Source of the DNA: a virus
Taxonomy: Duplodnaviria; Caudoviricetes
Length of the DNA stretch: 64,000 nt
Direction: 5' to 3' (one strand)
IMG/VR virus record: IMGVR_UViG_3300037722_001090
Made by a program: the position numbers and the translations under genes. Each line of letters begins with the position of its first letter. The stretch's first letter is position 1. This document shows positions 5,908 through 61,371 of the stretch, piece by piece. The notes below the pieces were generated by a model. The model saw nothing but the letters and a program-made list of their open reading frames with translations. It made no database searches and was not told where the DNA came from.

Positions 5908-6272
5908 TAGTTTTATTTATTAGCTCGTCTTTTCCAGTTTGCTTTTACTGCTGCAACCTGATTTGCTCTTACATCTTCAGTGCCATTTTTATTAATGACA
6001 GCTGCAATTTCACTTGATGTATTAGTTACACCTAGCTCACATAGTGATACAACAAATTTTTTCCAGTTATTCATATTCTTATTCTCCATTATTTAGATTT
6101 TTCAAGATTACTAATAATCTCAAGAGCTTCTTCGTAGGAATTAGCATGCGATACTAGCATTGCGTTTAAAACAATACTTCCTATAAGTAACGCACCGGTA
6201 TCAGGCTGAATAGCCCGTACTACCATTATTTTATTTTTACTTGGTTGTGTGATAATTACTAAATCACTCATA

Positions 6273-16696: not shown

Positions 16697-17353
16697 TTAC
16701 GTAATATTTAATTTAAAAACTAGATTAAGCATGGTAGTGGGTTTATTAGACTTATAAGCATATGCATGTACTTCTTCAATAACGTAACCACACTCTTGTG
16801 CAATTTTTGCAATGTCTTTAGAAATATCTTCCTTGTTCTTCAAGGCGGTCTTGTGCATATTAACGCCAATACCAGTAATCATAAAAGTTGTGAGCAGTAA
16901 TCCACCATTAGATACTACTTTGTTTTTAAGAGCTTTTTTAATAATTCCAGATGTACAATTATCAGTACCATTATCAAAATAAAATGTACAAAAATCAAGA
17001 TTTAGAACATTATAAAGATCAGTACATTTATTATCTAAAACAGATAACGCATCAGTACTCATAATTTTAATATCAACAGGCAACTTATTGTGCCTACCGC
17101 TATTATTCCATTCAGTAATCTTATTTTTATCTCGTTCACATAAAACCATAACCTTAAGATCTTCTATATGTTTTGCATAATACTCAGCACCCACACCTCC
17201 GCCAAGAAATTCAAACATAATCTTATTTTCATTTTTAAGGTAATGATTTATAATGGCAACTAACTGTGGTCTAGAAAATTCTTTACCAGGATTATTATCT
17301 TCTGTTCTTACCATATATGTAATCCTAAAAACCCCCGGCGAACCGGGGGTCAA
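16697..17353 (-). CDS. putative SAM-dependent methyltransferase-fold protein
   Basis: EFLGGGVG motif I-like, LCERD, LNLDFC. Confidence 0.4.
   Translation of the reverse strand: MTPGSPGVFRITYMVRTEDNNPGKEFSRPQLVAIINHYLKNENKIMFEFLGGGVGAEYYAKHIEDLKVMVLCERDKNKITEWNNSGRHNKLPVDIKIMSTDALSVLDNKCTDLYNVLNLDFCTFYFDNGTDNCTSGIIKKALKNKVVSNGGLLLTTFMITGIGVNMHKTALKNKEDISKDIAKIAQECGYVIEEVHAYAYKSNKPTTMLNLVFKLNIT
17331..17349 (-). terminator. stem-loop with UUCG loop and short U tract
   Basis: plus strand AAAACCCCCGG-CGAA-CCGGGGG; overlaps the GTG start of the next ORF. Confidence 0.55.
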
Positions 17354-17358
17354 ACAAA

Positions 17359-17844
17359 TTAGTTTTCAGATTTGTTTTTAACTGCTTCGCGCTTACGTGC
17401 TTCGTCTTCAATAGATTCTTCTACTGCATAACGCTGAGCATTAACTTCAAACCACTTAGCAATAGCATATGACTCATCAGCCTCAATAGTAATAGATGCT
17501 TTATTATCACCATCATTCATCATGATAGAGATTTTTCCATTATACATAGAAGCTTTAAGTTGACGCTTAGCATCGCCATCACCAACACTTTTAGACATAT
17601 CACCAAACTTTTTAAGTTCTAGTTCAACGCCCTGCGATAGGCCAAGAAACTTAAAAGATGCTTGGAACATTTCTAAAGTTTTAAAAGAGATAGAACAGGT
17701 CTTATCATAATCAAAGCGCTGCTCACCTGGTTTAGGCTGACCTTTTCCTGCGCCATCTAGGCCAGGAGTAATACGAATAAAAGCTCTTTTTTTATCATCC
17801 CATGTGGACAATTCAAGAACTGAATTAGTACGATAAATTCTCAT
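17359..17844 (-). CDS. hypothetical protein, possibly PC4/Whirly-like nucleic-acid binding
   Basis: beta-beta-beta-alpha pattern; weak. Confidence 0.4.
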   Translation of the reverse strand: MRIYRTNSVLELSTWDDKKRAFIRITPGLDGAGKGQPKPGEQRFDYDKTCSISFKTLEMFQASFKFLGLSQGVELELKKFGDMSKSVGDGDAKRQLKASMYNGKISIMMNDGDNKASITIEADESYAIAKWFEVNAQRYAVEESIEDEARKREAVKNKSEN

Positions 17845-17868
17845 TTTTGTTTATTCCTTTCTTAATTA

Positions 17869-18282
17869 TTAGCCCCAAGAAATTCTTTTCTTAGGAGTTA
17901 CAGCAGGTGCTTCTTTCGCAGGCTCTTCATTCTGGCCTGTTGCTTCTGGAGTAGTGTTTTTCCTAACAACAACATTTACATAGTCATCCTTAGTTTTACC
18001 TCCAGATGAAACACCGATCTTTTTATTGAATTCAGCAATAATAACATCATCAATTTTCTTGCGAACTTCAGGTGAAGCAAACGTGATATGCTGAAGCCAT
18101 TCTTCAGAATTTGCCTTCTTCTTCTGCGGCCAAGAAATAAAGATACTACCACTAGACGGAGCCTTCATGATAGTGAACTTGATTGAAAATGCCTCACAGA
18201 ACGTAATCATTCCATAACCAACACTAGCCCCAGTATCGTAATTTGAAGTAAATACCTTTACTTCAGTTACTTCTAATGACAT
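17869..18282 (-). CDS. SpoVG family protein
   Basis: EVTEVKV...ITF...F.I...FISWPQKK...EW...R..I...I. Confidence 0.7.
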   Translation of the reverse strand: MSLEVTEVKVFTSNYDTGASVGYGMITFCEAFSIKFTIMKAPSSGSIFISWPQKKKANSEEWLQHITFASPEVRKKIDDVIIAEFNKKIGVSSGGKTKDDYVNVVVRKNTTPEATGQNEEPAKEAPAVTPKKRISWG

Positions 18283-18297
18283 AATATTCTCCTTTTC

Positions 18298-18594
18298 TTA
18301 TTTTATTTGTTTAATTTCATTTTTATAAATCTCATAAATACCAGGACTACAACTCTCTAGGTCTCCTTGAAATACATCAAGAATCATTTCCTTAAGTGTA
18401 TCAACAATATCACCAGAAAATAGCAATGCGCCCTCATGTTTAAGTACACAAACAGGACCCTCGCCATTATTTAAATCTATCTGGATTTTATTAAGCATAA
18501 GAGAACAATCGCTCTCATCAACTATCTTTACAGATGCGATACCAGTATATTCGCCTGTTTTATGGATTATAATCTTATTTATTACAAATGACAT
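18298..18594 (-). CDS. possible SpoVG-like paralogue
   Basis: I..I.I...GIASV...D..L.LNKIQI; weak. Confidence 0.35.
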   Translation of the reverse strand: MSFVINKIIIHKTGEYTGIASVKIVDESDCSLMLNKIQIDLNNGEGPVCVLKHEGALLFSGDIVDTLKEMILDVFQGDLESCSPGIYEIYKNEIKQIK

Positions 18595-19075
18595 AATTTA
18601 AAACAATCCTTTTAATTTCTTCGTAATTTTCACCATCATATACTAAATGATCTGCAGGCTTAGGTATTTTAACATTCTTTCTCCACATATCAATATCTAA
18701 CGGACCAATCCTTTGCCTAGTAGGTGCATTACCAGCAAAGGACTTAAAGCGATTAAAATTATGCATATGTTTTTCTCGTGAAGGAAAAACCAATATGTGT
18801 AAATTATCTACACCTTCAAAACTATAAGGACACTTATCGACTTCATCAGATCCAAACCAAGTAGATGCTGACTCTGCAATAACATTATGTCCATTAGTTG
18901 CAAAATCTAAAGCTGCTCGATAAAACAATGGATAACCACCGTTCTTCCAAAACCGTTCATAATTTACAACCTTACAGTTTTCAACATCATTTAGTAACTG
19001 AGAGACTAGATATGTCTTACCTGAAAATGGAGGACCATTTATAAATACTATTTTACCCAATTGGACCTTTTGCAT
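18575..19075 (-). CDS. P-loop kinase
   Basis: GPPFSGKT Walker A near N-terminus. Confidence 0.65.
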   Translation of the reverse strand: MQKVQLGKIVFINGPPFSGKTYLVSQLLNDVENCKVVNYERFWKNGGYPLFYRAALDFATNGHNVIAESASTWFGSDEVDKCPYSFEGVDNLHILVFPSREKHMHNFNRFKSFAGNAPTRQRIGPLDIDMWRKNVKIPKPADHLVYDGENYEEIKRIVLNYVICNK

Positions 19076-19268
19076 AATCAATAGTTTCCCTATGGTAACC
19101 ATTAGCAGCAGAAAACCCATGTACAATACCAATGCTAGCAACTGGCATAATCATCATATGTGCACTACATTTTTCACATAGCATTTCTTTTGCTGAATCA
19201 TATGAACAAATTCTTTCAGATATATGTCCACATTTCTCATCTGTACATTTAAGTTTATATTGAGGCAT
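19053..19268 (-). CDS. FmdB-like zinc ribbon protein
   Basis: MPQYKLKC..CG...CEKC. Confidence 0.7.
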   Translation of the reverse strand: MPQYKLKCTDEKCGHISERICSYDSAKEMLCEKCSAHMMIMPVASIGIVHGFSAANGYHRETIDYAKGPIG

Positions 19269-19270
19269 AC

Positions 19271-20449
19271 TTATTCTCCGTTCAGATATGCAAGCAGTTC
19301 AATATGCGCAGCATCACACGCAGTCTTAACTTCATCAAATCTAGCCTGTCTATAAGAAGACTCTGCATACTCAACCCATACTTTTAACAGACCATATTTA
19401 TGTGGACCTAAATCTTTAACATACAGCAAAACTTCTTCTGGTTTAAACCGATAAAATGCAAGAGCATCAGGAATCTTATTAACAATTTCAATTCCAGCAG
19501 CATCTACAAAACCAAAAACAGCATGTGTCATTAATGCCTGTGCAGCATATAGTTGGCTGATATGTGTAGTAGAAAATGTATTATTAATATTGCAACGTAC
19601 AAGATTATAATTCAATGGCTTACCAGATACAAGATCATAAAAGATATTATATGCCAATTGAGCAACTAGCATATTAATAGGCATAGACTGATCATTTTGT
19701 AGTTCCATATCAGTACATGAAGGCTTTTCAGTATCTTTAAAGTTAGGATATAACTCTAAAAGAGTAGGTAAATATCTAATCCTATGTCTACCTGGATTAC
19801 CTTTTTCAGAGACTAGATCGTTCTGAGCAAACTTTCCCATTTGCCAAGCTTCATAAAGAAATGCTTTTTTGCGACCTTGATTTATGTTTTCTATATTAGA
19901 AACAAGTACTTGGCCAAAACTATCTTCATTGCCACAGCTAATACAAATAGCTAAATTATTTACAGAAAATGCCTCAATTGATTCTCTTGCTTTTTTATTA
20001 TCAGTACAGTCAAAAATAATATAATTAGCATTAGTATTGCCATGCTCATTACGAATAGCCCTAACATTACATTCAGCAAAAGGTTTATTAAAACATTCAA
20101 TTTCAAGACCATAAAGAGCAGAAAATCTCTCAGCCAAAACTTCAGACTTACTTCTTCCTATATCAAAAGCATAGAAATTTTGACGCTTGAGATTTTTACC
20201 TTCTACAGTATCCATATCAATAAGAACTAGGTTCATTTTATGCTTAAGAAATTCTTTATTACGAGCATTTGTTGTGATTTCATTGTTATGATTTGCAATA
20301 TGTTGAGCAATATTTGGAATAATACGACCACCAGTACCGCCACATCCAACTACAATCACATTAGTATGTGTATATGTTGTATTGTTAAATGTCGGCAAAT
20401 ATTGTACCGTTCGAATTTTCATAGCCTCTAAAAGTTCAGCACTTATCAT
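19271..20449 (-). CDS. ThiF/E1-like Ubl-activating enzyme (PRTRC ThiF type)
   Basis: VVGCGGTGG, DMDTVEGKNLKRQNF, KSEVLAERF, DCTDNKKAR, PSC (candidate catalytic Cys). Confidence 0.9.
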   Translation of the reverse strand: MISAELLEAMKIRTVQYLPTFNNTTYTHTNVIVVGCGGTGGRIIPNIAQHIANHNNEITTNARNKEFLKHKMNLVLIDMDTVEGKNLKRQNFYAFDIGRSKSEVLAERFSALYGLEIECFNKPFAECNVRAIRNEHGNTNANYIIFDCTDNKKARESIEAFSVNNLAICISCGNEDSFGQVLVSNIENINQGRKKAFLYEAWQMGKFAQNDLVSEKGNPGRHRIRYLPTLLELYPNFKDTEKPSCTDMELQNDQSMPINMLVAQLAYNIFYDLVSGKPLNYNLVRCNINNTFSTTHISQLYAAQALMTHAVFGFVDAAGIEIVNKIPDALAFYRFKPEEVLLYVKDLGPHKYGLLKVWVEYAESSYRQARFDEVKTACDAAHIELLAYLNGE

Positions 20450-20452
20450 TTT

Positions 20453-21226
20453 TTAATCTCCTATAACTCTATCTCGTACATTGTTCCAAAGATTAGAATA
20501 ACCACTTCTGGCAATAATATGGCCATTCCATCCACTATTCCAAGCACCACTACCAACAGGAATAAACCCTTTAGCTTCTTCCTCTTTAGCAATAGTAATA
20601 TTTTTAATAGATGAAGTTACATCAATAGAAAGTTTCTCATTACTTTCACAGAAAATACTATCAATGTCAACATTAACACGTTTTCCTAGTGTACTAAAGC
20701 GGACTTTAAACTCAGGGATAACATTATTTATCTTGCCAATAACAGCAGAATATCTATCTCGATTATCATCTTTATTATCAGTAGAAGAAAAGAATGCGCC
20801 CATAGAGCTTGTATGTGAATGTATATCAATAACAATACTACAGTTAGGGAACTTACTCCACACTTCCTTTACGTCATAATGAGCACTTGCAGCACCAACT
20901 ACTTGCTCTGGTACATAAAGAAAATACTTATCAGTATCTCTATTATACATCACCAAAACATATGCTTCTAATGCTTTATCTTTATGTTGATTTTCTACTT
21001 CCCTAAAAAAACGAAGAGTCTCCCAGAAGGCGCTTATAGGAATTTTTCTTCTTAGTATAGAAATAGACTCTTTGCCTTTTGGCATACCGTTTATTCCATC
21101 AACCTTAGTTACAATATGTCCACATCCAGCAGCACGAATAAGATATGTACCGTCTTCACATAAGGCATATGTAATTAATCCCAATCCGCTTTTATCCTCA
21201 GGAATGCCTTGGATAATTTTGAACAT
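20453..21226 (-). CDS. JAB/MPN+ metallopeptidase (PRTRC protein A type)
   Basis: LEA...DIHSH...AFFSSTDNKDD (E, HxH, S, D). Confidence 0.88.
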   Translation of the reverse strand: MFKIIQGIPEDKSGLGLITYALCEDGTYLIRAAGCGHIVTKVDGINGMPKGKESISILRRKIPISAFWETLRFFREVENQHKDKALEAYVLVMYNRDTDKYFLYVPEQVVGAASAHYDVKEVWSKFPNCSIVIDIHSHTSSMGAFFSSTDNKDDNRDRYSAVIGKINNVIPEFKVRFSTLGKRVNVDIDSIFCESNEKLSIDVTSSIKNITIAKEEEAKGFIPVGSGAWNSGWNGHIIARSGYSNLWNNVRDRVIGD

Positions 21227-21894
21227 TAAATACCCCCGAGCTTAGTATTGTATCCAGCATCGACATATAGACTTTCTGGAAACTCTTCTTTATCCTTGAG
21301 AAATTCAAAAAGACCACGAGGAGTATCAAATCCAGCGTGTCTAAATAGTGCACCTTGGAATAAGTCATTATTAAAAGGAGCACCAAAAAGACGATCAATA
21401 TATACAGGTAAGCCCATAAGAGACCTAAGGCTCCCAGCTAAAGTATTAGTTCCACCCCAGCAAACCCACCCTTTATCACTGATATTAGGGAATGGAAGTG
21501 CATAAAGAGGAGTATTTTCATTTAAGAAAAGAGGAGCCTCTTTAACTGCCCATACATACGTATCAATCAGATTATAGGTATTATCTCTTACCCCAAGATT
21601 GAAACGCATTACAAGACCAGGCCTAATACAGTTCTCAAAAGTATCAGACTGGTACTGAGCATTAAATTTTGCAGGAGGAGAATATATAATTAAAATGGCG
21701 CTATTACCTTTTTCTTTATACTTAATAGTACCAAGAGGTAAAAGAGGACTTTGAATGCCAGTACCTTGCTCTTGAAATGCTTTTACAAGAGTATCTACTT
21801 TTAGTGTCTTTTTATGCTGTGATCCATTGTGGCTAGGGCTTGTAATAATAGCTTTATTTCCACAAATCTCTACAGTAATTTTTTCAATATCCAT
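21226..21894 (-). CDS. prokaryotic E2-like protein (PRTRC protein B type)
   Basis: PLLP.G...LYALPFPNISDKGWVCWGG...FGAPFN. Confidence 0.78.
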   Translation of the reverse strand: MDIEKITVEICGNKAIITSPSHNGSQHKKTLKVDTLVKAFQEQGTGIQSPLLPLGTIKYKEKGNSAILIIYSPPAKFNAQYQSDTFENCIRPGLVMRFNLGVRDNTYNLIDTYVWAVKEAPLFLNENTPLYALPFPNISDKGWVCWGGTNTLAGSLRSLMGLPVYIDRLFGAPFNNDLFQGALFRHAGFDTPRGLFEFLKDKEEFPESLYVDAGYNTKLGGI

Positions 21895-22802
21895 TATACA
21901 GCTCCAATTCCACGTAGTTCACGAGAAATACTTTCAACCCAAACACGAATTCTATTGGCTGCTGCAATAGACTCTACCATTGGAGCAGTTGTCCAAACAT
22001 TAAGTTTGTTGATTAAAAATAAATCTTCTTTATTAAAATTTTTCTCAAAAAGTTCGTCTATCTTATTATTCGTTAAAGCAAACTGAAACGTTAAAAGGAA
22101 AGCCTGTTTCATACTTTCCCATGCTGCCTTATTGTCCGGATTAGAAGGAGTATTGCCTCTTCCTATAATAAAGAAATATATATCTTTAAATGAAGGTACA
22201 TATGTATCTTTAAATCCAGACTCCGTAAGAGTATCTTTAATATCAACTAATGAATACTTTACATACTGAGCATAAGGAATAATAATATTTTTTACAGATA
22301 TTAAGTCTTGAAATGCTGAATCAAAATTTGACATTAAAAAGCTAGATGAATTATCGCTACCAGCTGCTGATACAAAAGCAGCAGTCTCTAATCTTTGAGA
22401 ATCTATATTTGCAGTAATATCACATCCAGATTGGTTAAAACGAAGACTTGCCATCCTAATAGCATTTTCAGTAAAACCATGTGTTTGCAAAAGATAATTA
22501 CTACACCCATCGAATGTACGAACAAGAAGATCATTACCTTTAGCCCATCTATCATATCTAAAATTAGCAATAACTCTACCATTACGGATCTTAATATCTT
22601 GTACGTAATCAGATAATCCTGCAGCCTCAATATTATTAGTCCACTGTGTCTTAATAAAGAAACATAGCTTTCTATCCATATCTGTATTGCTATATGCAAG
22701 ATTCAATGCAGAAGACTTAACAATATCGTTCTTATATAGTAAGTGCTGGATATAAGCACTAGATAGTATTTTAACATTTTTTCGCAGAGACTGATTCGTC
22801 AT
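21894..22802 (-). CDS. hypothetical protein within the Ubl cassette
   Basis: 302 aa, coupled to the E2-like gene. Confidence 0.6.
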   Translation of the reverse strand: MTNQSLRKNVKILSSAYIQHLLYKNDIVKSSALNLAYSNTDMDRKLCFFIKTQWTNNIEAAGLSDYVQDIKIRNGRVIANFRYDRWAKGNDLLVRTFDGCSNYLLQTHGFTENAIRMASLRFNQSGCDITANIDSQRLETAAFVSAAGSDNSSSFLMSNFDSAFQDLISVKNIIIPYAQYVKYSLVDIKDTLTESGFKDTYVPSFKDIYFFIIGRGNTPSNPDNKAAWESMKQAFLLTFQFALTNNKIDELFEKNFNKEDLFLINKLNVWTTAPMVESIAAANRIRVWVESISRELRGIGAV

Positions 22803-23133
22803 TTTCTACCTCTCTAGACATTGCTTTAAAATAATCAAGTTCTACATCAGAGCGCATTTTACCAAAAATAACGATAAGATCCTCATATGCCTTTGTAAAT
22901 CCTTGAAACCTTTCAATATATAAAAAAGCTAAATTAAACCTATTAGTAACATCATCAATATTACATAGTCTCTTAGTAGTACTAGCACCTTCAATATCAG
23001 TAAGTAACTTAGAAACCAAGTCCATATCTATAACAGTAATAGAGCTTTCTTCATCTTGTAAATCTAGTATGCTTCTAACTAAATTCTTATCTTCATCTGG
23101 AGCAGTTTGGATTTCATTTTCCTGTTCTTCCAT
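22771..23133 (-). CDS. hypothetical protein within the Ubl cassette
   Basis: 120 aa acidic, helical. Confidence 0.55.
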   Translation of the reverse strand: MEEQENEIQTAPDEDKNLVRSILDLQDEESSITVIDMDLVSKLLTDIEGASTTKRLCNIDDVTNRFNLAFLYIERFQGFTKAYEDLIVIFGKMRSDVELDYFKAMSREVENDESVSAKKC

Positions 23134-23154
23134 TCAGAAACTCCCTTATAGAAT

Positions 23155-23180
23155 AAAAAAAGGGGAGGCGAACCTCCCCT
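23155..23180 (-). terminator. intrinsic terminator
   Basis: AGGGGAGG-TTCG-CCTCCCCT followed by T tract on minus strand. Confidence 0.8.
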
Positions 23181-23185
23181 TAAGT

Positions 23186-24094
23186 TCATTTGTTTTTAAA
23201 AAAATTGTTAAGAATATTATTTATATTTTTTATTTCAAAATAAGATATTCTCAATAGGATTATATCATTCTTTTTTGCATAGTTAGTTTTAATTTTATCT
23301 TTTATGCGAGTTAACTCTAAAGCTTTAATTCCACCGAAATGATCTATAACTTCATAGTGTTGAATTCCATCAAATTCAATAAGTAAATTATATTTAGGAA
23401 TATAAAAATCAAAAGGTAACATTCTCTTATATTTACAACCAACAAACTTATGTTGAGTTTCATACTCTATATTATTGAGATTTAAATATAAGCTAATTTT
23501 TCTTTCTCCATGAGACTCTCTGCATGAAGGACATCCAACACCCTGTAAGTGACTTCCAGATTGCTGTTTAAAGTCTCCATGAACAGGGCAACCTATAATA
23601 ACTTTATTTAGCCATCCATCATACTGTACTTTTGAATAATCATACTTATTATCATGAACTTCATTAGCTTCTTCTATCCAAGACTCTTGAGACTTAAATT
23701 GATTTTGAGGAAGATTTTCATATTTACATTTTGAACAACCTCTGCCCTGAATATGATCATTTGCTCGCTGACTAAACTCGCCATGCTCTATACATACTAT
23801 AGAAACATAGCTACGAGAATCTATATATTTAGATTTTGAATAATCATATTTATTGCTATGAACTTCATTTGCTCTTATGATCCATTCTTCTTGAGTTAAA
23901 ACCTTACTCATGCAAATAGGACATTTCTGCCCCGTTAAATGATTACTTGGAGTTTGAAAAAACTCACCATGTTCACTGCAAACTATAGAAATTTTAGTAT
24001 AACTATTTTTATAGTCTACTAATAAATAACTATAAGTATTTCCATGAACATGATGAGCTTTATTAATAAAATCTTCTCTTGTTAGTTTTCGCAT
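23186..24094 (-). CDS. homing-type endonuclease (zinc-ribbon repeats plus Vsr-like domain), paralogue of 8968-9939
   Basis: three YDYS...C..HG.F.Q...H..G.GC..C repeats; PFDFYIP...IEFDGIQHY. Confidence 0.85.
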   Translation of the reverse strand: MRKLTREDFINKAHHVHGNTYSYLLVDYKNSYTKISIVCSEHGEFFQTPSNHLTGQKCPICMSKVLTQEEWIIRANEVHSNKYDYSKSKYIDSRSYVSIVCIEHGEFSQRANDHIQGRGCSKCKYENLPQNQFKSQESWIEEANEVHDNKYDYSKVQYDGWLNKVIIGCPVHGDFKQQSGSHLQGVGCPSCRESHGERKISLYLNLNNIEYETQHKFVGCKYKRMLPFDFYIPKYNLLIEFDGIQHYEVIDHFGGIKALELTRIKDKIKTNYAKKNDIILLRISYFEIKNINNILNNFFKNK

Positions 24095-24119
24095 ATAGTC
24101 TCCTTTTAATAGAACTATA

Positions 24120-24129
24120 TGTTAATAAC
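24120..24129 (-). promoter_or_regulatory. GTTATTAACA motif upstream of endonuclease gene
   Basis: exact copy. Confidence 0.6.
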
Positions 24130-24137
24130 TAGTCAGA

Positions 24138-24347
24138 TTAGATAACTCCCTTGGTACCAATTCGCTCTGCGAAAGTGATATACTTGATTCCGCCTTCAAT
24201 ACGTACAGTTGCGCTGCAGTTCAGAACCCAAGGAAAGAATTGTCCAAACCGCTCTTTTACGGTTTCAACATCATTGTCTCCCTCGAGCTGCGAGGTTTCA
24301 GGTACACCAGAAAGGGTGATAATAGTTTTAGTGATAATTTCGGACAT
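24138..24347 (-). CDS. ubiquitin-like protein (PRTRC protein C type)
   Basis: 69 aa; VETVKERF...FP.V.N...ITF..RIGTKG C-terminal signature followed by VI. Confidence 0.78.
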   Translation of the reverse strand: MSEIITKTIITLSGVPETSQLEGDNDVETVKERFGQFFPWVLNCSATVRIEGGIKYITFAERIGTKGVI

Positions 24348-24413
24348 AATTTGTTTCTCCTTTTCTCTTCAGAAAATAGTTAGTGGCTAAATTTCATAGC
24401 CTGTAAAATAGCA

Positions 24414-25382
24414 TTAATTTGCTAGCCAATCATTATAGCATTCGTTAGTTTCATCATTAAAACCTCCTCCTGCATATTCTTCCCCCAACACCATAAAATC
24501 GTGAGTATCAGGCGTGTCTTTTAGGCTCATTAAGAACCCAAGACTAGCAATCCCCCAGTCTGACTGAGAAACTGAATAGCCTTTTTTTATATATTTTTCA
24601 ATTCTAATAAATTGAGATCTTCGTACTGGTAAATTGATAAACTTAAATTGCTTCTTTCGAAGAGCACGGATAGCACCCTTAAGCATATAAACAAATTCGC
24701 CATCATAAGCTAAGCAGCAAGCACTAGCATCAAACTCACTTAAAACATGAGTAGCTTCAGCAAAACATTTACTTATAATCTGTACAAGAGTAAATGGAGC
24801 AGCAATTAATCTACACTCAGTTACATGACCCTTCGGGTTCACTTCCCACGCATTATTAGACTCGAATTCTTTAATGACAACATCTCTATCTTCTTCATTA
24901 GTAAAGAATAAATCAAAGTCATTTGTAGGATCAACCTCATTGTTAAACCAGCTCATAACTTTCCCACCAGCAACAATGAACTTAAATCCTCTTTCATGTA
25001 GATCATCAATAAGTGCAAACGTAGATTTAGATATTTCAGGATTAATACCAAACCTACGCTCAACGGTACTTCTTTTACTGCTCATAAAAATCATTTTATG
25101 TCTTAGGCATTTTGAAATAAAAGGCGTATATACATTAGCTAAAAACTCTGGTACATATTCTCTTTTTAGCTCCCCAATAGGACATGTAATCTTAGCATCT
25201 GAAAATACTAAATTTTTAAGTCCCTTAATTCTATTCCAGTCAAGAGAATACTCAATTTTCGGGGAAGTAGCTGACTGCATTTTTAATTTAGAATCTTTTA
25301 CATTTCTTATCGTTGCAAATGTGGCTACAGCAGTATTATCAGCATCATTCGCCATATCTAGTTCTGTAAAACTCCAAGACAT
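24414..25382 (-). CDS. nucleotidyltransferase (Pol beta superfamily, CCA/polyA polymerase-like head)
   Basis: VAGG...NDFDLFF, later FD...CCLAYDG; start moved to MSWSF. Confidence 0.7.
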   Translation of the reverse strand: MSWSFTELDMANDADNTAVATFATIRNVKDSKLKMQSATSPKIEYSLDWNRIKGLKNLVFSDAKITCPIGELKREYVPEFLANVYTPFISKCLRHKMIFMSSKRSTVERRFGINPEISKSTFALIDDLHERGFKFIVAGGKVMSWFNNEVDPTNDFDLFFTNEEDRDVVIKEFESNNAWEVNPKGHVTECRLIAAPFTLVQIISKCFAEATHVLSEFDASACCLAYDGEFVYMLKGAIRALRKKQFKFINLPVRRSQFIRIEKYIKKGYSVSQSDWGIASLGFLMSLKDTPDTHDFMVLGEEYAGGGFNDETNECYNDWLAN

Positions 25383-25469
25383 TATCGTTCCTTTGTGTAA
25401 AAAAAAGAGTGATGGCTTTCCTTCCGTACTAACCACCACTCAGTAACAAAAATTGTATAAATACAAGAC

Positions 25470-25870
25470 AAGCCCTAGGCTTTATGAATAGCATCCGCCG
25501 CTACTCTCTTGTAATTATACATATCGACTCTAAACTGGGCCCGCCAGGCATGTCCGCCTTAGGAGACCAGTCTTCTCGAGCTGCGTGCACATAGCGCTGC
25601 GTTAGAAACGCAGTGCGTTTTGCGCGAGCTCGCGATATCAAATTGCGATGCAATTTCGATTGTCGACCAGGTGTCATAGGTACCTTTAATAGATTTAAAG
25701 GCCTTCGTATTTCCGGGGCGTTTTCAAAACGCCACAGGATTCTCTATATCGATATACTATTGTATACCTTCATAGGGACTCGTGTTCCTATGATCCTGAC
25801 GATTTTAATACGAAGTTCTGAGAAACTTCGATATCCGCAGGATAGCTTTTATTAAAATCGTGTACAAATT
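25470..25870. repeat. polylinker-like array of restriction-site palindromes and short-loop hairpins
   Basis: 17 six-bp palindromes counted by hand in ~400 non-coding bp directly downstream of the RT. Confidence 0.8.
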
Positions 25871-25883
25871 ATCAGCAGTCGTA

Positions 25884-26657
25884 TCAACTGCCGCGCTTTG
25901 CATCACAAGTTTCCTTGTACTGCATAAGTTTATGATATTGATCCTTGTTAACACTTTTCAAATAAGAAATGTGACCCATTTCAACATCAGTAACTTTTCC
26001 ATTATAAATAGCAGCACGTAAGTTCTTACGTATTTTTCTATTTAAAGAGACTTTTTCATTCACAGTAATTCCAAGAACTTTCTGTGATTTATTCTTATAC
26101 ATATATTCTATTTTATTATCCCGAACATCAAATCCAAGTTCACGAAGTCTAGATCTTACAATGTTTATTAACTCACCAACATCAGGTTTTCCATACCCCG
26201 AAAGCGTAATATCATCCGCATATCTAGAGAAGTTTATCTGCATAGGCTCCAGCTTAACAAATAGTTCTTCATCAAAGTCTCGTAGTACAATATTAGATAT
26301 AACAGGACTACAAGGACTTCCTTGAACTAACTTACTATCAAGAGTTGCTATTTCCTTTTCATATTGATCAAGAAATGTAAGCATATGTGCTTTAATTGAA
26401 GGAAAAAACTCAGCAATATCAATGTTAAGAACCCAATCTTGACCTACATGAACACACGCAGCATCTGTAGTGCTTTTACCTTTAATGAATCCATGACAAA
26501 AATCACTCATCCATTCTTCATTAACTAAACGATTTCTCAATATTCTTTGATGATCTTTTAATTCTTCACACGGAGCATGTATAATTCTTCTTTTACCATT
26601 TTTCTTTTTGCGATAGAAAACACTATACAGTGCATTCTTATTGCTCATATCTAGCAT
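25884..26657 (-). CDS. retron-type reverse transcriptase (short, 257 aa)
   Basis: KKNGKRRIIHAP, HGFIKGKS, DAACVH (NAxxH-like), DIAEFFPSI, QGSPCSP, YADD, VLGITV (VTG-like). Confidence 0.9.
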   Translation of the reverse strand: MLDMSNKNALYSVFYRKKKNGKRRIIHAPCEELKDHQRILRNRLVNEEWMSDFCHGFIKGKSTTDAACVHVGQDWVLNIDIAEFFPSIKAHMLTFLDQYEKEIATLDSKLVQGSPCSPVISNIVLRDFDEELFVKLEPMQINFSRYADDITLSGYGKPDVGELINIVRSRLRELGFDVRDNKIEYMYKNKSQKVLGITVNEKVSLNRKIRKNLRAAIYNGKVTDVEMGHISYLKSVNKDQYHKLMQYKETCDAKRGS

Positions 26658-26681
26658 CGATTATCTTCCTATTTATAACTT

Positions 26682-26697
26682 GCGGCCCGAAGGCCGC
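26682..26697 (-). terminator. stem-loop with UUCG loop just upstream of the RT start
   Basis: GCGGCC-TTCG-GGCCGC on minus strand; no U tract. Confidence 0.5.
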
Positions 26698-26699
26698 TA

Positions 26700-27510
26700 G
26701 TGATATGTAAATAACATTGGAACAATGTTATGAGTGAAAGAAGTGAACCCAAAGGGTCAGACTTTTTGAGCGACTTCTTTCTGAAAATGGCTATCGAAAC
26801 AACAGCCCGAGATGCAGTTTTTTTTTAAAAAATGTATAAAGAGAGAGTAACCTCTCAAGATACTGACAAGTCAGAGACTCAAAAATTTCGACCTGTGGCG
26901 AGAAATACAATAAGCAAGCGTTTGTTTTTCTTGCCTGTGGTCGAAATAATTTGATGCTGAACTTGGGGTCAGAGACCTTGTTACAACTTATTTTATTTTT
27001 GATTCCTTGTGTTAACAAGGGGCAGTCCGATTTTTAGCTCGTTGAGCTTTTAATCGGCCTGTCATTTTGATCCTGAAAGGGCAAAATTTTCAAAGATAAA
27101 ACAAGTTCACAAGGGCTGAACCTACAGTCAGAGCAAACCTCGTATAACCCCTAGGACGCGTCAGTGTCCGCCGGGTTTGTCGAGCGTGTCGGTAGTTTGC
27201 TGAACTGTACGAGCGTAGCGGTTAAGCTACATAAAATAGGATAAGCGTATCGCCTATCAAAAGCTGTATAAAACCCTGCTCAAGCAAACAGGATATATAC
27301 TCAGGATTTAGGATTCTAAGAATCCTAAATACTATAACTGACTTTACTGAACAGTTTTATCGTCAGAGTAAAGTCAAATCTTCTTGTCTTTGCCGTACCA
27401 GCAAAGATTACTAACAGACAGGGAACATCCAATGTCAATATTTTTGGCTTTATAAGTATCAATTCCGGAAGGATTGGATAGATCATAAGATGTATTTGAC
27501 ATAACCACCA
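26700..27510. ncRNA. large nested multi-hairpin non-coding region upstream of RT (candidate RT template RNA)
   Basis: more than 12 hairpins and long-range pairs; no convincing ORF. Confidence 0.65.
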
Positions 27511-27534
27511 CTGTCATATTAGATTTTCTAAAAT

Positions 27535-27873
27535 TTAAGAATGTTTCCAGAGCTTAAATTTCTTAAAAAGCTTTCTGTCTTCTCCGTACACCGGTTCACT
27601 ACAAATAGCAGTATATCCCATTTCATAATCTGGTTCAAAGAACATATAGTTTGTTATATTATTACAATCCAAGTATTGCTTGGCTCGTAATAGTCCTTCT
27701 TCACTTTTCACAGTAAGTACTATTAGAAATGAAACCTCATCTGGTTTCGCTTTTAGGCGCTGTCCCATTTCAAACGCTGCATGAGCAGTCTGTACTAATT
27801 GCGCATGTGATGGTATATCTGTTCTTACAATGCAGTAAGTATATGGTTTCTATGTTGACATTTTATCACTCAT
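27535..27873 (-). CDS. Pth2-like peptidyl-tRNA hydrolase with in-frame TAG at codon 8
   Basis: GGAG RBS, MSDKMST*KPYTYCIVRTDIPSHAQLVQTAHAAFEMG...FFEPD...TAICSEP; TAG at 27850-27852. Confidence 0.75.
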
Positions 27874-28174
27874 AGATTTCTCTCCTCAACACTTTCAGAG
27901 CTACTTTAGATTCACTCATAATTTTATCAGTGATACTAGTTAATACTTCATCACTTGCAATATCCTTAAAGAAATGCTTTGGTAATGAAATATATGCAAT
28001 AGTTTCATATCTAGTTGTTGGAGCAAGACATTCTTTCCAGCTTTTCCCGCATAGTTCCTTGTAAATAAGGTGATGACCGAAAGACATATTATCTCTCTCG
28101 CTACTATTAATAGCATCACTCCATGCTTTCCGTACTTGAAGATATTCTTCTTTTGTTTCGAATTTGGTTTCCAT
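27866..28174 (-). CDS. hypothetical protein
   Basis: 102 aa, overlaps the start of the Pth2-like gene. Confidence 0.6.
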   Translation of the reverse strand: METKFETKEEYLQVRKAWSDAINSSERDNMSFGHHLIYKELCGKSWKECLAPTTRYETIAYISLPKHFFKDIASDEVLTSITDKIMSESKVALKVLRREIYE

Positions 28175-28251
28175 TGTTTCTGTCCTTTTATATTGAGAAT
28201 TGTTAGAGTCATATTTATTTTTTTTCTATCTATTATTTTCGACTATGTCAA

Positions 28252-28335
28252 TCAACAATGAACAGGAGGAGACCTGCTTCGAATCTACAATTGAGGGATT
28301 CCTCGCATAGGGTTTTCTTTAATCATCTTCTTCAT
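28252..28335 (-). CDS. leader peptide with in-frame TAG followed by RSPP
   Basis: AAGGAG RBS, MKKMIKENPMRGIPQL*IRSRSPPVHC(TGA); TAG at 28285-28287. Confidence 0.5.
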
Positions 28336-28421
28336 TTTATCTCCTTTCAGAGTGTAAATTAGTAAATGCAAGACCATAATTAGGTGTTCCGGACCACATG
28401 ATCTTTTTTACTAAACTATAA

Positions 28422-28499
28422 TGGTGCCCTGTACCGGATTTGAACCGGTGAATCTTCGGGTTTAGAATCCGAGGCCTTACCTGACTTGGCGAACAAGGC
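28422..28499 (-). tRNA. amber suppressor tRNA (anticodon CUA), Gln-like body
   Basis: acceptor GCCTTGT/ACAGGGC, loop TT-CTA-AA, TTCAAAT T loop, encoded CCA. Confidence 0.85.
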
Positions 28500-28502
28500 A
28501 TA

Positions 28503-28730
28503 TTGAGAGGGATTATTTAATAGCAGCAACCCATAGTACGTCGACTATGAGTTAGTTTTTGCTAGAAATCAAGAAATAATATAGGTCTTGACCAGCGCTT
28601 ACGACTTATTTGGTTACCTATTTCACAAACAAGAAGCGAGGACCACGTACACATACGGATAAGTTGGAAATCTTATCTAAAGGTTGCCTGCATCGTCATT
28701 AGAAGTAACTGCTATACTCGCCACTCTCAA
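28503..28730 (-). ncRNA. long Y-RNA-like element
   Basis: TTGAGAG/CTCTCAA and ATAGCAG/CTGCTAT stems with the TGGCG..TTACTTC motif shared with elements at 62-64 kb. Confidence 0.55.
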
Positions 28731-28734
28731 AACT

Positions 28735-61347: not shown

Positions 61348-61371
61348 AGGAACTCCTCCTTGGGTTGTTAT

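What the first reader, a model, noticed from the sequence alone, without database searches (positions are those of the whole stretch)
19053..24347. Complete phage-encoded ubiquitin-like conjugation cassette (Ubl, E2-like, JAB, E1, Zn ribbon)
Seen: in one orientation, a Ubl ending ...F.ERIGTKG, two unknown ORFs, an E2-like protein (PNI..G.VCWG), a JAB peptidase with intact HxH..S..D, a ThiF/E1 with GxGGxG and NLxRQ, and an FmdB-like zinc ribbon. Established: this gene set matches PRTRC-type prokaryotic Ubl operons known mainly from plasmids and integrative elements, whose substrates are largely unknown; other bacterial E1-E2-JAB systems act in anti-phage defence. Inference: the phage runs its own protein-tagging system, possibly modifying host defence proteins or removing host Ubl tags. 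The 302 aa and 120 aa ORFs are candidate E3-like or substrate proteins.
Basis: partly seen in the sequence, partly recalled or inferred. Interest (0 to 1): 0.8.

Follow-up and report, generated by a model that had tools for sequence, protein, structure and literature searches.

The report
Phage ubiquitin-like tagging gene cassette
A large phage carries a complete, intact gene set for attaching a small ubiquitin-like protein to other proteins; it is a divergent, never-tested branch of a cassette predicted in 2006, and what it tags is still unknown.

Summary
On the minus strand of a jumbo-phage-like window lie a 69-aa ubiquitin-like protein (Ubl), an E2 with an invariant Cys, a JAB/JAMM peptidase with an intact metal site, and a ThiF-type E1.

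There are two corrections:
- Three ORFs, not two, lie between the Ubl and the E2.
- One of the two 302-aa ORFs (23186-24094) is a free-standing homing endonuclease. It sits between the Ubl stop codon and a conserved terminator, and it is absent from all relatives.

The conserved unit is six genes: Ubl, a small protein (120 aa), a larger fast-evolving protein (302 aa), E2, JAB and E1. This unit recurs in more than 30 uncultured large phages. It also occurs in Bacillus phage vB_BceM_WH1, Vibrio phage D69 and Salmonella phage Arash.

All the Ubls end in GTKG. Relatives encode 2-5 tandem Ubl repeats, each ending in GTKG, which resembles polyubiquitin and implies JAB trimming.

The Zn ribbon and the Gad2-like nucleotidyltransferase are neighbours only within this phage clade.

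The cassette belongs to operon type "6d" of Iyer et al. 2006. It is only a distant relative of PRTRC: every hit is below the family cut-off and there is no ParB. Its function is untested.

This scan has reported similar phage cassettes many times before on other DNA.

The parts
24138..24347 (-). Ubl precursor, 69 aa. The predicted mature C-terminus is Gly67 of GTKG, followed by a 2-residue tail (VI).
   Evidence: The AF2 model has pLDDT 80 and a beta-beta-alpha-beta-beta topology. AFDB matches include several 'PRTRC system protein C' entries (TM 0.6-0.68), MoaD/ThiS and TGS. In the PDB search the top hit is MoaD at Z 5.0, followed by many ubiquitin-fold proteins. The Atlas search gives TM 0.68-0.72, including a cluster partly annotated Prok_Ub. 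E..GTKG is invariant in 7 homologues, 3 of which end exactly at GTKG. hhalign to the Prok_Ub repeats of phage WH1 gp211 gives probability 82%, E 1e-5.
23186..24094 (-). Free-standing homing endonuclease gene (302 aa). It is an insertion and not a cassette component.
   Evidence: It hits phrog_559 'HNH endonuclease' at 1.6e-75, phrog_9084 'homing endonuclease' at 1.3e-29, and DUF723/DUF4379/DUF559 weakly. It is absent from this position in all relatives, where the Ubl is followed by the small gene after only 58-90 nt. Homologues sit at other positions of related cassettes: between E2 and JAB in L013, and between JAB and E1 in L014.
23160..23181 (-). Intrinsic-terminator-like hairpin with a U-run. 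It is the conserved terminator or attenuator that follows the Ubl gene.
   Evidence: The hairpin has a 9-bp stem with 6 GC pairs, followed by TTTTTATT. A GC-rich hairpin plus U-run with a different sequence is found in the Ubl-to-small-gene spacer of all six relatives tested (z -2.3 to -4.6). In the window the endonuclease gene lies between the Ubl stop codon and this hairpin.
22771..23133 (-). Small cassette protein (120 aa), acidic and predicted helical. Function unknown.
   Evidence: It is conserved at this position in 6 relatives at 24-45% identity, with K54 and D100 invariant. It overlaps the start of the next gene. It has no family hit and no Atlas lead. A protein of 60-128 aa occupies the Ubl-to-E2 interval in all distant phage cassettes examined.
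21894..22802 (-). Larger cassette protein (302 aa), fast-evolving and mostly alpha-helical with a 4-stranded sheet. No known fold relative was found. It is a candidate specificity factor or substrate.
   Evidence: Identity among clade members is 18-27%, and only K29-S30 is invariant. A profile search of 1.84 billion representatives found only 31 relatives. The AF2 model has pLDDT 84 and pTM 0.83. No significant match was found in the PDB, AFDB or Atlas; the best was Z 6.5, within the noise range. A protein of 206-509 aa occupies the same interval in distant cassettes.
21226..21894 (-). E2-like conjugating enzyme (222 aa). The candidate catalytic residue is Cys145.
   Evidence: It hits Pfam Prok-E2_D at 9.3e-11, above the cut-off. 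It hits PRTRC_B at 2.8e-6, below the cut-off. LPFPN and G.xCWG, including Cys145, are invariant in 8 sequences.
20453..21226 (-). JAB/JAMM metallopeptidase (257 aa) with an N-terminal alpha+beta domain.
   Evidence: It hits Prok-JAB at 5.4e-6, above the cut-off. It hits PRTRC_A at 1.5e-13, below the cut-off. E87, H136, H138, S147 and D150 are invariant, as are the DDNRD motif and R60 in the N-terminal domain.
19271..20449 (-). E1-like adenylating enzyme (392 aa).
   Evidence: It hits ThiF at 2.5e-17. It hits PRTRC_ThiF at 5.1e-25, but with 88 bits against a cut-off of 144.75. Invariant residues are GCGGTG, R42, D78, D80, KNLxRQ, D150, GNE and S244-C245. The closest solved relatives by sequence are MccB, ThiF, Uba1 and MoeB, matched over the adenylation core only.
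19053..19268 (-). Four-Cys zinc-ribbon protein (71 aa) just downstream of the E1 gene. It is a clade-specific neighbour, and its membership of the cassette is unproven.
   Evidence: C8, C13, C31, C34 and an NGY motif are invariant in 8 sequences. Zn_ribbon_8/FmdB hits are below the cut-off. No such gene follows E1 in Arash, D69, WH1 or the distant IMG/VR loci. The whole neighbourhood is syntenic within the clade, so adjacency there says little.
24414..25439 (-). Nucleotidyltransferase-like protein directly upstream of the Ubl. Its homologues carry the Pfam 'Gad2' label. It is a clade-specific neighbour.
   Evidence: It hits DUF2204 at 2.2e-3 and phrog_4400 at 1e-13. It is 27-36% identical to the genes flagged PF26128:Gad2 in seven related places: six fetched loci plus the P0012 contig, for which no DNA was available. 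It has no match in isolate phages. It is not found beside the distant cassettes.

Best explanation
This is a working, self-contained ubiquitin-like protein conjugation pathway encoded by a large lytic-type phage. It belongs to operon type '6d' of Iyer, Burroughs and Aravind (2006) and is a distant sister of the plasmid/ICE PRTRC cassette.

Proposed mechanism:
1. The 69-aa pro-Ubl is transcribed ahead of a conserved terminator, so it is probably made in excess over the enzymes.
2. The JAB metallopeptidase trims it after Gly67 of the GTKG motif.
3. The E1 adenylates Gly67 and probably takes it onto Cys245.
4. The Ubl passes to Cys145 of the E2 and then to a lysine of the target.
5. The two cassette-specific proteins (120 aa and 302 aa) evolve much faster than the enzymes. 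They most likely provide target choice (an E3-like or adaptor role) or are themselves the target.
6. JAB may also reverse the tag.

Shown here: domain identities, intact catalytic motifs, the beta-grasp fold, the conserved C-terminal glycine motif, poly-Ubl precursors in relatives, and six-gene synteny across very distant phages.

Inferred: every biochemical step, and the target.

My best guess for the biological role is modification of host proteins during takeover or counter-defence, at about one chance in three.
For: Family hits:
- E2 (Prok-E2_D), JAB (Prok-JAB) and ThiF all score above their Pfam cut-offs.
- PRTRC_A, PRTRC_B and PRTRC_ThiF are the best NCBIfam hits.

Catalytic residues invariant across 8-9 homologues:
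- E2 Cys145.
- JAB E87, HxH, S and D.
- E1 GxGGxG, KNLxRQ, D150 and SC245.

The Ubl:
- Its beta-grasp model matches PRTRC protein C, MoaD/ThiS and ubiquitin-fold proteins.
- In several AFDB PRTRC-C-like hits, the hit's last residue aligns with query residue 67, the Gly of GTKG.
- The GTKG C-terminus is universal. It is seen in 7 of 7 clade members and in 15 of 21 IMG/VR loci, where an ORF ending ...TGTKG-stop lies upstream of E2-JAB-E1.
- An unannotated ORF in Salmonella phage Arash also ends in GTKG.
- Vibrio phage D69 has 3 tandem Ubl repeats and Bacillus phage WH1 gp211 has 5, each ending in GTKG. Di-Ubls occur in IMG/VR loci. These precursors need an endopeptidase.

Conserved architecture:
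- The six-gene order (Ubl, two extra proteins, E2, JAB, E1) is kept in phages whose E2 and E1 are only 25-31% identical to the window's.

Rates of divergence within the clade, as identity to the window:
- E2 37-60%, JAB 40-56%, E1 38-51%.
- 302-aa protein 18-27%.

Expression and context:
- A terminator-like hairpin follows the Ubl gene in all the relatives whose spacers were folded.
- The Arash particle mass-spectrometry table lists Gp246-249 and Gp251. If the paper's numbering matches the record's locus tags, this suggests that homologous cassette proteins are made.
- The window neighbourhood is rich in auxiliary and anti-defence-like genes: NAD salvage, three RNA-ligase-type genes, a Gad2-like nucleotidyltransferase and a retron-type reverse transcriptase.
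Against: - There are no biochemical data for any member of the 6d/PRTRC lineage in the literature I could search.
- The window Ubl has no direct Pfam or NCBIfam hit.
- The His C-terminal to the E2 Cys, which Iyer et al. call absolutely conserved in 6d, is present in only 4 of 8 clade members.
- The match of E1 Cys245 to the ThiF/MoeB crossover-loop cysteine is my reading of the alignment. The PDB sequence alignments stop before that region.
- The 120-aa and 302-aa proteins show no detectable homology to their positional counterparts in WH1, Arash or D69. Their equivalence rests on position and size only.
- The target and the biological role are unsupported by any direct evidence.
- The anti-defence flavour of the neighbourhood may simply reflect a syntenic genome backbone.
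Confidence: 0.75

Rival explanations
1. The cassette tags the phage's own proteins, for example virion or assembly proteins, as part of morphogenesis rather than acting on the host.
For: In Bacillus phage WH1 the 5x poly-Ubl gp211 is annotated 'virion structural protein'. In Salmonella phage Arash, LC-MS of particle preparations listed Gp246-249 and Gp251, and the GenBank record labels the E2 and E1 homologues 'structural protein'.
Against: The Arash particle proteome also contained RNA polymerase subunits, ribonucleotide reductases and other enzymes, 116 proteins in all, so detection there does not show structural incorporation. I could not check the basis of the WH1 annotation because no paper was found. 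In the window the cassette lies among replication, RNA-repair and auxiliary genes, not in a structural module.
Confidence: 0.2
2. The cassette is a counter-measure aimed at host ubiquitin-like immunity (Bil, Bub, type II CBASS). The JAB would strip host Ubl or cGAS conjugates, or the phage Ubl, E1 and E2 would act as decoys that jam the host enzymes.
For: Host Ubl-based antiphage systems exist and use JAB peptidases (PMC10097602, PMC10557695). The E1 shows weak similarity to CBASS Cap2 'E1-E2' models (PADLOC, 3e-6).
Against: A deconjugase or decoy role would not need a complete E1-E2-Ubl set with invariant catalytic residues plus two extra conserved proteins. Neither the E2 nor the JAB hits any PADLOC defence model. 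The Ubl, E2 and JAB are of the 6d type, not the Bil, Bub or Cap3 type.
Confidence: 0.12
3. The cassette is a defence or exclusion system carried by the phage against competing phages or other mobile elements. This would mirror bacterial E1-E2-JAB defence systems.
For: Other bacterial E1/E2/JAB operon families act in antiphage defence (PMC10557695). A retron-type reverse transcriptase lies two genes upstream (PADLOC RT_III-A, 2.1e-59) and recurs there in at least six related loci.
Against: The cassette proteins match no known defence family. 6d/PRTRC cassettes are typical of plasmids, ICEs and phages rather than of chromosomal defence islands (PMC1779556). No relative was found in the one scan of bacterial genome representatives, although that scan used only a single pattern.
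Confidence: 0.1
4. It is a sulfur-carrier or adenylation system of the ThiS/MoaD plus ThiF/MoeB type (cofactor, tRNA thiolation or peptide modification), not a protein-tagging system.
For: The E1 is most similar in sequence to MccB, ThiF and MoeB among solved structures. The Ubl model matches MoaD at Z 5.0.
Against: The cassette has an E2 with an invariant Cys and a JAB peptidase. Relatives have tandem poly-Ubl precursors. No sulfurtransferase, ThiG, MoaE or rhodanese partner is present in the cassette or in the related loci.
Confidence: 0.04

Closest known systems
Operon type '6d' of Iyer, Burroughs and Aravind 2006 (Genome Biol 7:R60, PMC1779556). The operon holds a Ubl, a JAB, an E1-like protein, an E2-like protein and a rapidly diverging alpha-helical protein. 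Pfam Prok-E2_D, Prok-JAB and Prok_Ub derive from it.
   Same: - The gene set is the same.
- The E2 lacks the classical HPN histidine (FPN here) and keeps the Cys.
- The JAB has the extra N-terminal domain with a conserved Arg.
- There is a fast-evolving, mostly helical extra protein.
- It is carried on a mobile element.
   Different: - The carrier is a large lytic-type phage.
- The His downstream of the E2 Cys is not conserved.
- There are two extra proteins rather than one.
- The extra proteins have no detectable homology outside the phage clade.
PRTRC (ParB-Related, ThiF-Related Cassette; NCBIfam TIGR03734-03742) of plasmids, ICEs and temperate phages, for example Ralstonia phage Dina, which is annotated 'PRTRC system ThiF family protein'.
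   Same: - The best NCBIfam hits for E1, E2 and JAB are PRTRC_ThiF, PRTRC_B and PRTRC_A.
- The Ubl model matches AFDB entries named PRTRC system protein C.
- The E2-JAB-E1 order is the same.
   Different: - All three hits fall far below the trusted cut-offs: 88 against 145 bits, 27 against 131, and 51 against 102.
- PRTRC C, D, E and F give no hit.
- No ParB gene is nearby.
Unstudied cassettes in cultured large phages: Bacillus phage vB_BceM_WH1 gp211-gp216, Vibrio phage D69 VPHD69_0307-0301, and Salmonella phage Arash gp251c-gp246c.
   Same: - All have the six-gene architecture: Ubl(s), two extra proteins, E2, JAB, E1.
- All the Ubls end in GTKG.
   Different: - Identity of the enzymes to the window's is only 23-38%.
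- The Ubl is a 5x tandem repeat in WH1 and a 3x repeat in D69, but single in the window.
- The two extra genes are in the opposite order in D69 and Arash.
- None has a Zn ribbon or a Gad2-like neighbour.
The bacterial antiphage ubiquitination systems BilABCD (type 6c), Bub (6e), and type II CBASS Cap2/Cap3 (6b).
   Same: The logic is the same: an E1, an E2, a JAB peptidase and a C-terminal glycine that is activated (PMC10557695, PMC11601596, PMC10097602).
   Different: - The E2, JAB and Ubl families are different.
- Only a weak E1 hit to Cap2-type models was found.
- The cassette is encoded by the phage, not the host.
- It has no CD-NTase, CEHH or DUF6527 partner.

Membership tests
Iyer 2006 operon type 6d | A separate Ubl gene with a beta-grasp fold and a C-terminal glycine | tested here: met
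   The model is a beta-grasp with pLDDT 80. It matches PRTRC-C, MoaD and ubiquitin-fold proteins. The GTKG C-terminus is invariant.
Iyer 2006 operon type 6d | An E2-like protein with a conserved Cys that lacks the classical HPN histidine | tested here: met
   Prok-E2_D hits at 9.3e-11. LPFPN and Cys145 are invariant.
Iyer 2006 operon type 6d | An absolutely conserved His C-terminal to the E2 Cys | tested here: not met
   The only candidate (FRH) is His in 4 of 8 clade members and is replaced by D, Q, N or M in the others.
Iyer 2006 operon type 6d | A JAB with an extra N-terminal alpha+beta domain carrying a conserved Arg and Trp | tested here: met
   An N-terminal domain of about 85 residues precedes the JAMM core. 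R60 is invariant. Trp is present in 6 of 8 members and Tyr in the other 2.
Iyer 2006 operon type 6d | A rapidly diverging alpha-helical protein in the operon | tested here: inconclusive
   The 302-aa protein is mostly helical and diverges fastest, at 18-27% identity. No homology to bacterial 6d/PRTRC proteins was detected.
PRTRC (NCBIfam TIGR03734-03742) | E1, E2-like and JAB score above the trusted cut-offs of PRTRC_ThiF, PRTRC_B and PRTRC_A | tested here: not met
   Scores against cut-offs are 88.2 against 144.75, 26.8 against 131.45, and 50.7 against 101.8 bits.
PRTRC (NCBIfam TIGR03734-03742) | A ParB-family gene in the cassette | tested here: not met
   None of the 20 window proteins scanned is a ParB. 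No ParB-type Pfam family appears among the genes called within 6-7 kb in the 8 related places. The rest of the window was not scanned.
PRTRC (NCBIfam TIGR03734-03742) | PRTRC proteins C, D, E and F | tested here: not met
   No NCBIfam hit at E <= 0.1 for the Ubl, the 120-aa protein or the 302-aa protein. For protein C there is only structural likeness.
Pfam Prok_Ub (PF14454) | A significant match to the family profile | tested here: inconclusive
   There is no direct hit even at E <= 10. However, the clade profile aligns to the Prok_Ub repeats of WH1 gp211 (itself PF14454 at 3.4e-27) with hhalign probability 82%, E 1e-5, and shares GTKG with them.
JAMM/MPN+ metallopeptidases | The E ... HxH ... 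S..D metal-binding and catalytic motif | tested here: met
   E87, H136, H138, S147 and D150 are invariant in 8 sequences.
E1/ThiF/MoeB adenylating enzymes | A Gly-rich nucleotide loop, the Arg finger motif (NLxRQ), the Mg-binding Asp, and a cysteine after the crossover region | tested here: met
   GCGGTG, KNLxRQ, D150 and S244-C245 are invariant. The equivalence of C245 to ThiF Cys184 / MoeB Cys187 is inferred and not shown.
Known antiphage Ubl systems (Bil, Bub, CBASS Cap2/Cap3; PADLOC models) | Matches to the system's own protein models | tested here: not met
   There is no PADLOC hit for the Ubl, E2, JAB or the extra proteins. Only weak E1 hits to 'E1-E2' models were found (3e-6, over the nucleotide-binding motif).

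The most novel reading that the evidence does not exclude
The 120-aa and 302-aa proteins evolve fast, and the larger one has a confidently predicted fold with no known relative. Together they may form a new kind of E3-like specificity module. Large phages would use it to direct their own ubiquitin-like tag onto host proteins, such as immune or RNA-repair-targeting factors. That would make this the prokaryotic-virus counterpart of viral hijacking of ubiquitination in eukaryotes.
Probability: 0.2. Interest if true: 0.85.

Novelty: new variant of a known kind. Interest (0 to 1): 0.55.

Why it matters
Bacterial E1-E2-JAB systems have recently been shown to be antiviral (Bil, type II CBASS). The 6d/PRTRC lineage was predicted in 2006 and is typical of mobile elements, yet I found no experimental study of it.

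This window and its relatives show four things:
- Large, apparently lytic phages keep a complete six-gene version of the cassette under purifying selection.
- The tag has a universal GTKG end.
- Some relatives encode polyubiquitin-like tandem precursors.
- Two companion proteins evolve quickly.

Three cultured phages carry the same cassette: Bacillus phage vB_BceM_WH1, Vibrio phage D69 and Salmonella phage Arash. The question of what a virus of bacteria does with its own ubiquitin-like system is therefore directly testable.

The finding is not unique. This scan has already reported many phage PRTRC-like cassettes.

Tried and rejected
- **Near-identical DNA.** A megablast of the cassette against 50,697 phage records found no match. 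No whole genome is held for the window.
- **First IMG/VR scan.** A scan with the single E1 protein found nothing. A later scan with the E2 alignment found 21 loci.
- **Bacterial genome scan.** The scan with the E2 alignment found no confirmed relative, but only one peptide pattern was used, so this says little.
- **Word-based homology search with the Ubl.** It found only the window's own protein.
- **Direct family scans.** Pfam, NCBIfam and PHROGs scans of the Ubl, the 120-aa protein and the 302-aa protein gave nothing usable, even at E <= 10.
- **Protein Atlas look-ups.** Neither the 302-aa nor the 120-aa protein gave a usable lead.
- **Fold searches with the 302-aa model.** PDB Foldseek gave nothing at E <= 0.001. 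VIA-align against 48,161 chains gave a best Z of 6.5, to the small domain of aminotransferases, which is within the stated noise range. AFDB clusters and the ESM Atlas gave nothing above TM 0.3 by query. I do not claim the fold is new, only that no relative was found.
- **Profile comparisons with positional counterparts.** hhalign of the 120-aa and 302-aa families against their counterparts in WH1, Arash and D69 gave probabilities below 1%.
- **Arash gp251c.** As annotated it is not a Ubl. The real Ubl is an unannotated ORF in another frame.
- **Complex prediction, E2 with the 302-aa protein.** The verdict was 'no answer' (score 0.01, mark 0.32). This is evidence neither for nor against binding.
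- **PDB sequence searches.** With the E2 and JAB profiles, no solved relative was found.
- **Gad2-like nucleotidyltransferase.** A search against isolate phages found no match.
- **Rfam.** A search of 17000-29000 found only a tRNA.
- **Literature.** I found no paper on phage-encoded 6d/PRTRC function, and the 2021 jumbo-phage survey does not mention such a cassette. No paper was found for phage WH1.
- **Zn ribbon as a cassette part.** I considered this and set it aside, because the gene is missing after E1 in all the distant cassettes.

Full report
**Context**

The window looks like part of a large lytic-type phage.
- Nearly every ORF of 150 aa or more lies on the minus strand, and GC is 0.30-0.39.
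- PHROG hits include a DnaE-type DNA polymerase piece, three RNA-ligase-type proteins, a DNA ligase, PhoH, NadV and a cytidyltransferase/NUDIX protein.
- There are 11 tRNA genes.
- No near-identical DNA exists among 50,697 phage records, and no genome is held for the window.
- The polymerase is closest (about 36% identity) to human-gut phage contigs and to Bacillus jumbo phage vB_BceM_WH1.

**Observation**

Reading the minus strand from 24347 down to 19053 gives the following ORFs:

| Coordinates | Size | Identity |
|---|---|---|
| 24347-24138 | 69 aa | Ubl, ending FAERIGTKGVI |
| 24094-23186 | 302 aa | homing endonuclease |
| 23133-22771 | 120 aa | small cassette protein |
| 22802-21894 | 302 aa | larger cassette protein |
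| 21894-21226 | 222 aa | E2 |
| 21226-20453 | 257 aa | JAB |
| 20449-19271 | 392 aa | E1 |
| 19268-19053 | 71 aa | four-Cys protein |

- Pfam places the 222-aa protein in Prok-E2_D (9.3e-11), the 257-aa protein in Prok-JAB (5.4e-6) and the 392-aa protein in ThiF (2.5e-17). All three are above the gathering cut-offs.
- NCBIfam's best hits are PRTRC_B, PRTRC_A and PRTRC_ThiF. All are far below their trusted cut-offs: 26.8 against 131.45, 50.7 against 101.8, and 88.2 against 144.75 bits.
- The first 302-aa ORF is a homing endonuclease (phrog_559, 1.6e-75; phrog_9084, 1.3e-29).

There are three ORFs between the Ubl and the E2, and one of the two 302-aa ORFs is a selfish insertion.

**Relatives and the extent of the cassette**

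A word-based search with the E1 found 58 relatives, with the closest at 41-55% identity. They lie on metagenomic contigs of up to 401 kb.

Eight places were fetched or listed. Every place that reaches far enough upstream shows the same block:
- a nucleotidyltransferase flagged Pfam PF26128 'Gad2';
- a 65-68-aa gene;
- a 100-124-aa gene;
- a 258-385-aa gene;
- Prok-E2_D;
- JAB;
- E1;
- a 69-73-aa gene.

A reverse transcriptase and often a TROVE/Ro60 gene lie upstream. None of the relatives has the endonuclease.

The whole neighbourhood, far beyond the cassette, is syntenic in this clade. Adjacency within the clade therefore cannot define the functional unit, so I looked at much more distant cassettes.

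| Phage | Architecture (upstream to downstream) |
|---|---|
| Bacillus phage vB_BceM_WH1 | gp211 (299 aa) - gp212 (127 aa) - gp213 (509 aa) - gp214 (E2) - gp215 (JAB) - gp216 (E1) |
| Vibrio phage D69 | 263 aa - 233 aa - 95 aa - E2 - JAB - E1 |
| Salmonella phage Arash | (Ubl) - 320 aa - 60 aa - E2 - JAB - E1 |
| Six distant IMG/VR contigs | small ORF of 64-140 aa (GTKG-ended in 4 of the 6) - 206-341 aa - 74-128 aa - E2 - JAB - E1 |

None of these has a Zn-ribbon gene after E1 or a Gad2-like gene before the Ubl.

The conserved unit is therefore six genes: Ubl, two extra proteins (one small and one larger, in either order), E2, JAB and E1. The Zn ribbon and the nucleotidyltransferase are neighbours specific to this clade, and their linkage is unproven.

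**The Ubl**

The 69-aa protein has no family hit, even at E <= 10. Five lines of evidence nevertheless identify it as a Ubl.
1. With a seven-sequence alignment, AlphaFold2 gives a beta-beta-alpha-beta-beta model at pLDDT 80.
2. Its best AFDB cluster matches include five entries named PRTRC system protein C (TM by query 0.62-0.68), a TGS domain and a MoaD/ThiS protein.
   - An exhaustive PDB comparison is headed by MoaD (Z 5.0, rmsd 3.3, 62 residues aligned), followed by dozens of ubiquitin-fold proteins.
   - The ESM Atlas gives TM 0.68-0.72, including a cluster partly annotated Prok_Ub.
   - These Z values are modest, as expected for a 69-residue domain. The argument rests on the consistency of the hits.
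3. The C-terminus E..GTKG is invariant in the clade. Three of seven proteins end exactly at GTKG and the others add 1-2 residues.
4. The motif extends far beyond the clade.
   - WH1 gp211 is five tandem 57-residue Prok_Ub repeats (PF14454, 3.4e-27), each ending AGTKG.
   - The D69 263-aa protein has three repeats ending TGTKG.
   - IMG/VR loci have single or double Ubls ending TGTKG-stop upstream of E2-JAB-E1, in 15 of 21 loci.
   - In Arash an unannotated ORF ends ...RRTGTKG-stop, while the annotated gp251c is in another frame.
5. The clade profile aligns to WH1 gp211 with hhalign probability 82%, E 1e-5.

The polyubiquitin-like precursors and the short tails argue that a peptidase exposes the terminal glycine, and JAB is the obvious candidate.

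**The enzymes**

- **E2.** Across eight sequences, LPFPN and G.xCWG, including Cys145, are invariant. The classical HPN histidine is replaced by Phe, as Iyer et al. describe for type 6d. The His they report downstream of the Cys is present in only half of this clade.
- **JAB.** E87, H136, H138, S147 and D150 are invariant, as are a DDNRD motif and Arg60 in an extra N-terminal domain.
- **E1.** GCGGTG, R42, D78, D80, KNLxRQ, D150, GNE and S244-C245 are invariant, including in the Arash protein. I read Cys245 as the crossover-loop cysteine. This is an inference, because the PDB sequence alignments (MccB, ThiF, Uba1, MoeB) cover only the adenylation core.

No solved structure is detectably related by sequence to the E2 or the JAB.

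**The two extra proteins**

- **120-aa protein.** It is acidic and predicted helical, with 24-45% identity in the clade. Its gene overlaps the start of the next one.
- **302-aa protein.** It diverges fastest: 18-27% identity, against 37-60% for the E2, 40-56% for the JAB and 38-51% for the E1.
  - Only Lys29-Ser30 is invariant across 24 sequences.
  - A profile search of 1.84 billion representative proteins found only 31 relatives.
  - Its model is confident (pLDDT 84, pTM 0.83): long helices plus a four-stranded sheet.
  - No library gave a match above noise.

There is no detectable homology to the positional counterparts in WH1, Arash or D69, or to PRTRC D, E or F. Their conserved presence, combined with fast divergence, fits a specificity or substrate role, but nothing shows it. 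A complex prediction of the E2 with the 302-aa protein gave no verdict (listed under Tried and rejected only).

**Insertion and transcription signals**

A terminator-like hairpin (23181-23160: 9-bp stem, 6 GC pairs, U-run) sits just upstream of the 120-aa gene. All six relatives tested have a GC-rich hairpin plus U-run, of different sequence, in the short spacer after the Ubl gene (z -2.3 to -4.6). So this is a conserved terminator or attenuator, and it would make the Ubl more abundant than the enzymes.

In the window the endonuclease gene has landed between the Ubl stop codon and this hairpin. Homologues of the same endonuclease sit between E2 and JAB in L013, and between JAB and E1 in L014. 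In another relative the JAB appears to be split by a LAGLIDADG gene. The cassette is evidently a repeated target of homing elements.

**Comparison with known systems**

- **Type 6d.** The gene set, the E2 and JAB peculiarities and the fast-evolving helical protein match operon type 6d of Iyer et al. 2006. That operon is the basis of Pfam Prok-E2_D, Prok-JAB and Prok_Ub.
- **PRTRC.** It is not a bona fide PRTRC. All hits are below the cut-offs, there is no ParB, and there is no D, E or F protein.
- **Defence systems.** It is not Bil, Bub or Cap2/Cap3. PADLOC gives only weak E1 hits.
- **Literature.** I found no functional study of 6d/PRTRC. The 2021 jumbo-phage survey does not mention such a cassette.
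- **Earlier scan results.** Earlier reports of this scan describe many phage-borne PRTRC-like cassettes (157 findings in at least 133 genomes). None shares sequence words with this E2.

**Function**

I think it most likely (about 0.75) that this is an active conjugation cascade:
1. JAB trims the precursor after Gly67.
2. The E1 adenylates Gly67 and forms a thioester.
3. The Ubl passes to E2 Cys145.
4. The Ubl is transferred to lysines, with the two extra proteins choosing the target or being the target.

The biological role is open. My estimates are:
- Host takeover or counter-defence, about one in three. The neighbourhood holds NAD salvage genes, RNA ligases, a Gad2-like nucleotidyltransferase and a retron-type reverse transcriptase, and 6d cassettes generally live on mobile elements.
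- Tagging of phage proteins, about 0.2. This is suggested by the 'virion structural protein' labels in WH1 and Arash. It is weakened because the Arash particle proteome also contained RNA polymerase and ribonucleotide reductases.
- Interference with host Ubl immunity, about 0.12.
- Inter-phage exclusion, about 0.1.

**Verdict**

This is a real, intact and well-conserved phage cassette. It is a new variant of a known but unstudied kind. Interest is moderate: it is not a first, even within this scan. It does have useful new anatomy: the six-gene unit, the universal GTKG end, poly-Ubl relatives, an attenuator after the Ubl gene and homing-endonuclease traffic. It also has three cultured relatives in which it could be tested.

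Noticed in passing
window 25884-26657 (-) and 25440-25883 (-): A retron-type reverse transcriptase (PADLOC RT_III-A 2.1e-59, RT_Ec107-like 7.7e-51) is followed by a 444-nt ORF-poor stretch. That stretch folds far better than shuffles (MFE -157.4 against -113.2, z -6.6). It has no Rfam hit and little sequence conservation with the equivalent gaps in L003 and L008. It may be an RT-associated structured RNA. The RT recurs upstream of the cassette in at least six related loci, often together with a TROVE/Ro60 gene.
   Followed up: partly
window 28422-28499 (-): A tRNA with a CUA anticodon, an amber-suppressor type that ARAGORN labels tRNA-Pyl, among the 11 phage tRNAs. Rfam confirms it is a tRNA.
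   Followed up: no
L001 (Salmonella phage Arash, OQ632216.1), locus positions about 100-305, + strand, frame 2: The GenBank CDS gp251c (72 aa, hydrophobic and low-complexity) looks like a wrong-frame call. An overlapping ORF in another frame ends ...YFSRRTGTKG-stop and is the likely Ubl of the Arash cassette.
   Followed up: partly
L013 1995-2708; L014 7559-8275; the contig of P0012 (no DNA available): Homologues of the window's homing endonuclease (44-50% identity) are inserted at other positions of related cassettes: between E2 and JAB, and between JAB and E1. In another relative the JAB appears split into 159-aa and 153-aa pieces around a LAGLIDADG-type gene on the opposite strand.
   Followed up: partly
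window 2987-4153 (-): This 388-aa ORF matches only positions 42-440 of a 1190-position DNA polymerase profile (phrog_405, 7.2e-116). It resembles the N-terminal third of DnaE-type polymerases. The polymerase gene may be split or interrupted here.
   Followed up: no
window 56052-57014 and 60109-61389 (-); 30171-31187 and 38040-39215 (-): NAD salvage genes are present: a nicotinamide phosphoribosyltransferase and a cytidyltransferase/NUDIX, NatV-like protein. Several RNA-ligase-type genes are also present. Both gene sets are often linked to counter-defence in large phages.
   Followed up: no
L002 (Vibrio phage D69), about 5979-6945: The E1 match begins at locus position 6001, but the annotated CDS starts at 6190, and a 29-aa CDS is annotated on the opposite strand at 5979-6068. 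The E1 start is probably mis-annotated.
   Followed up: no
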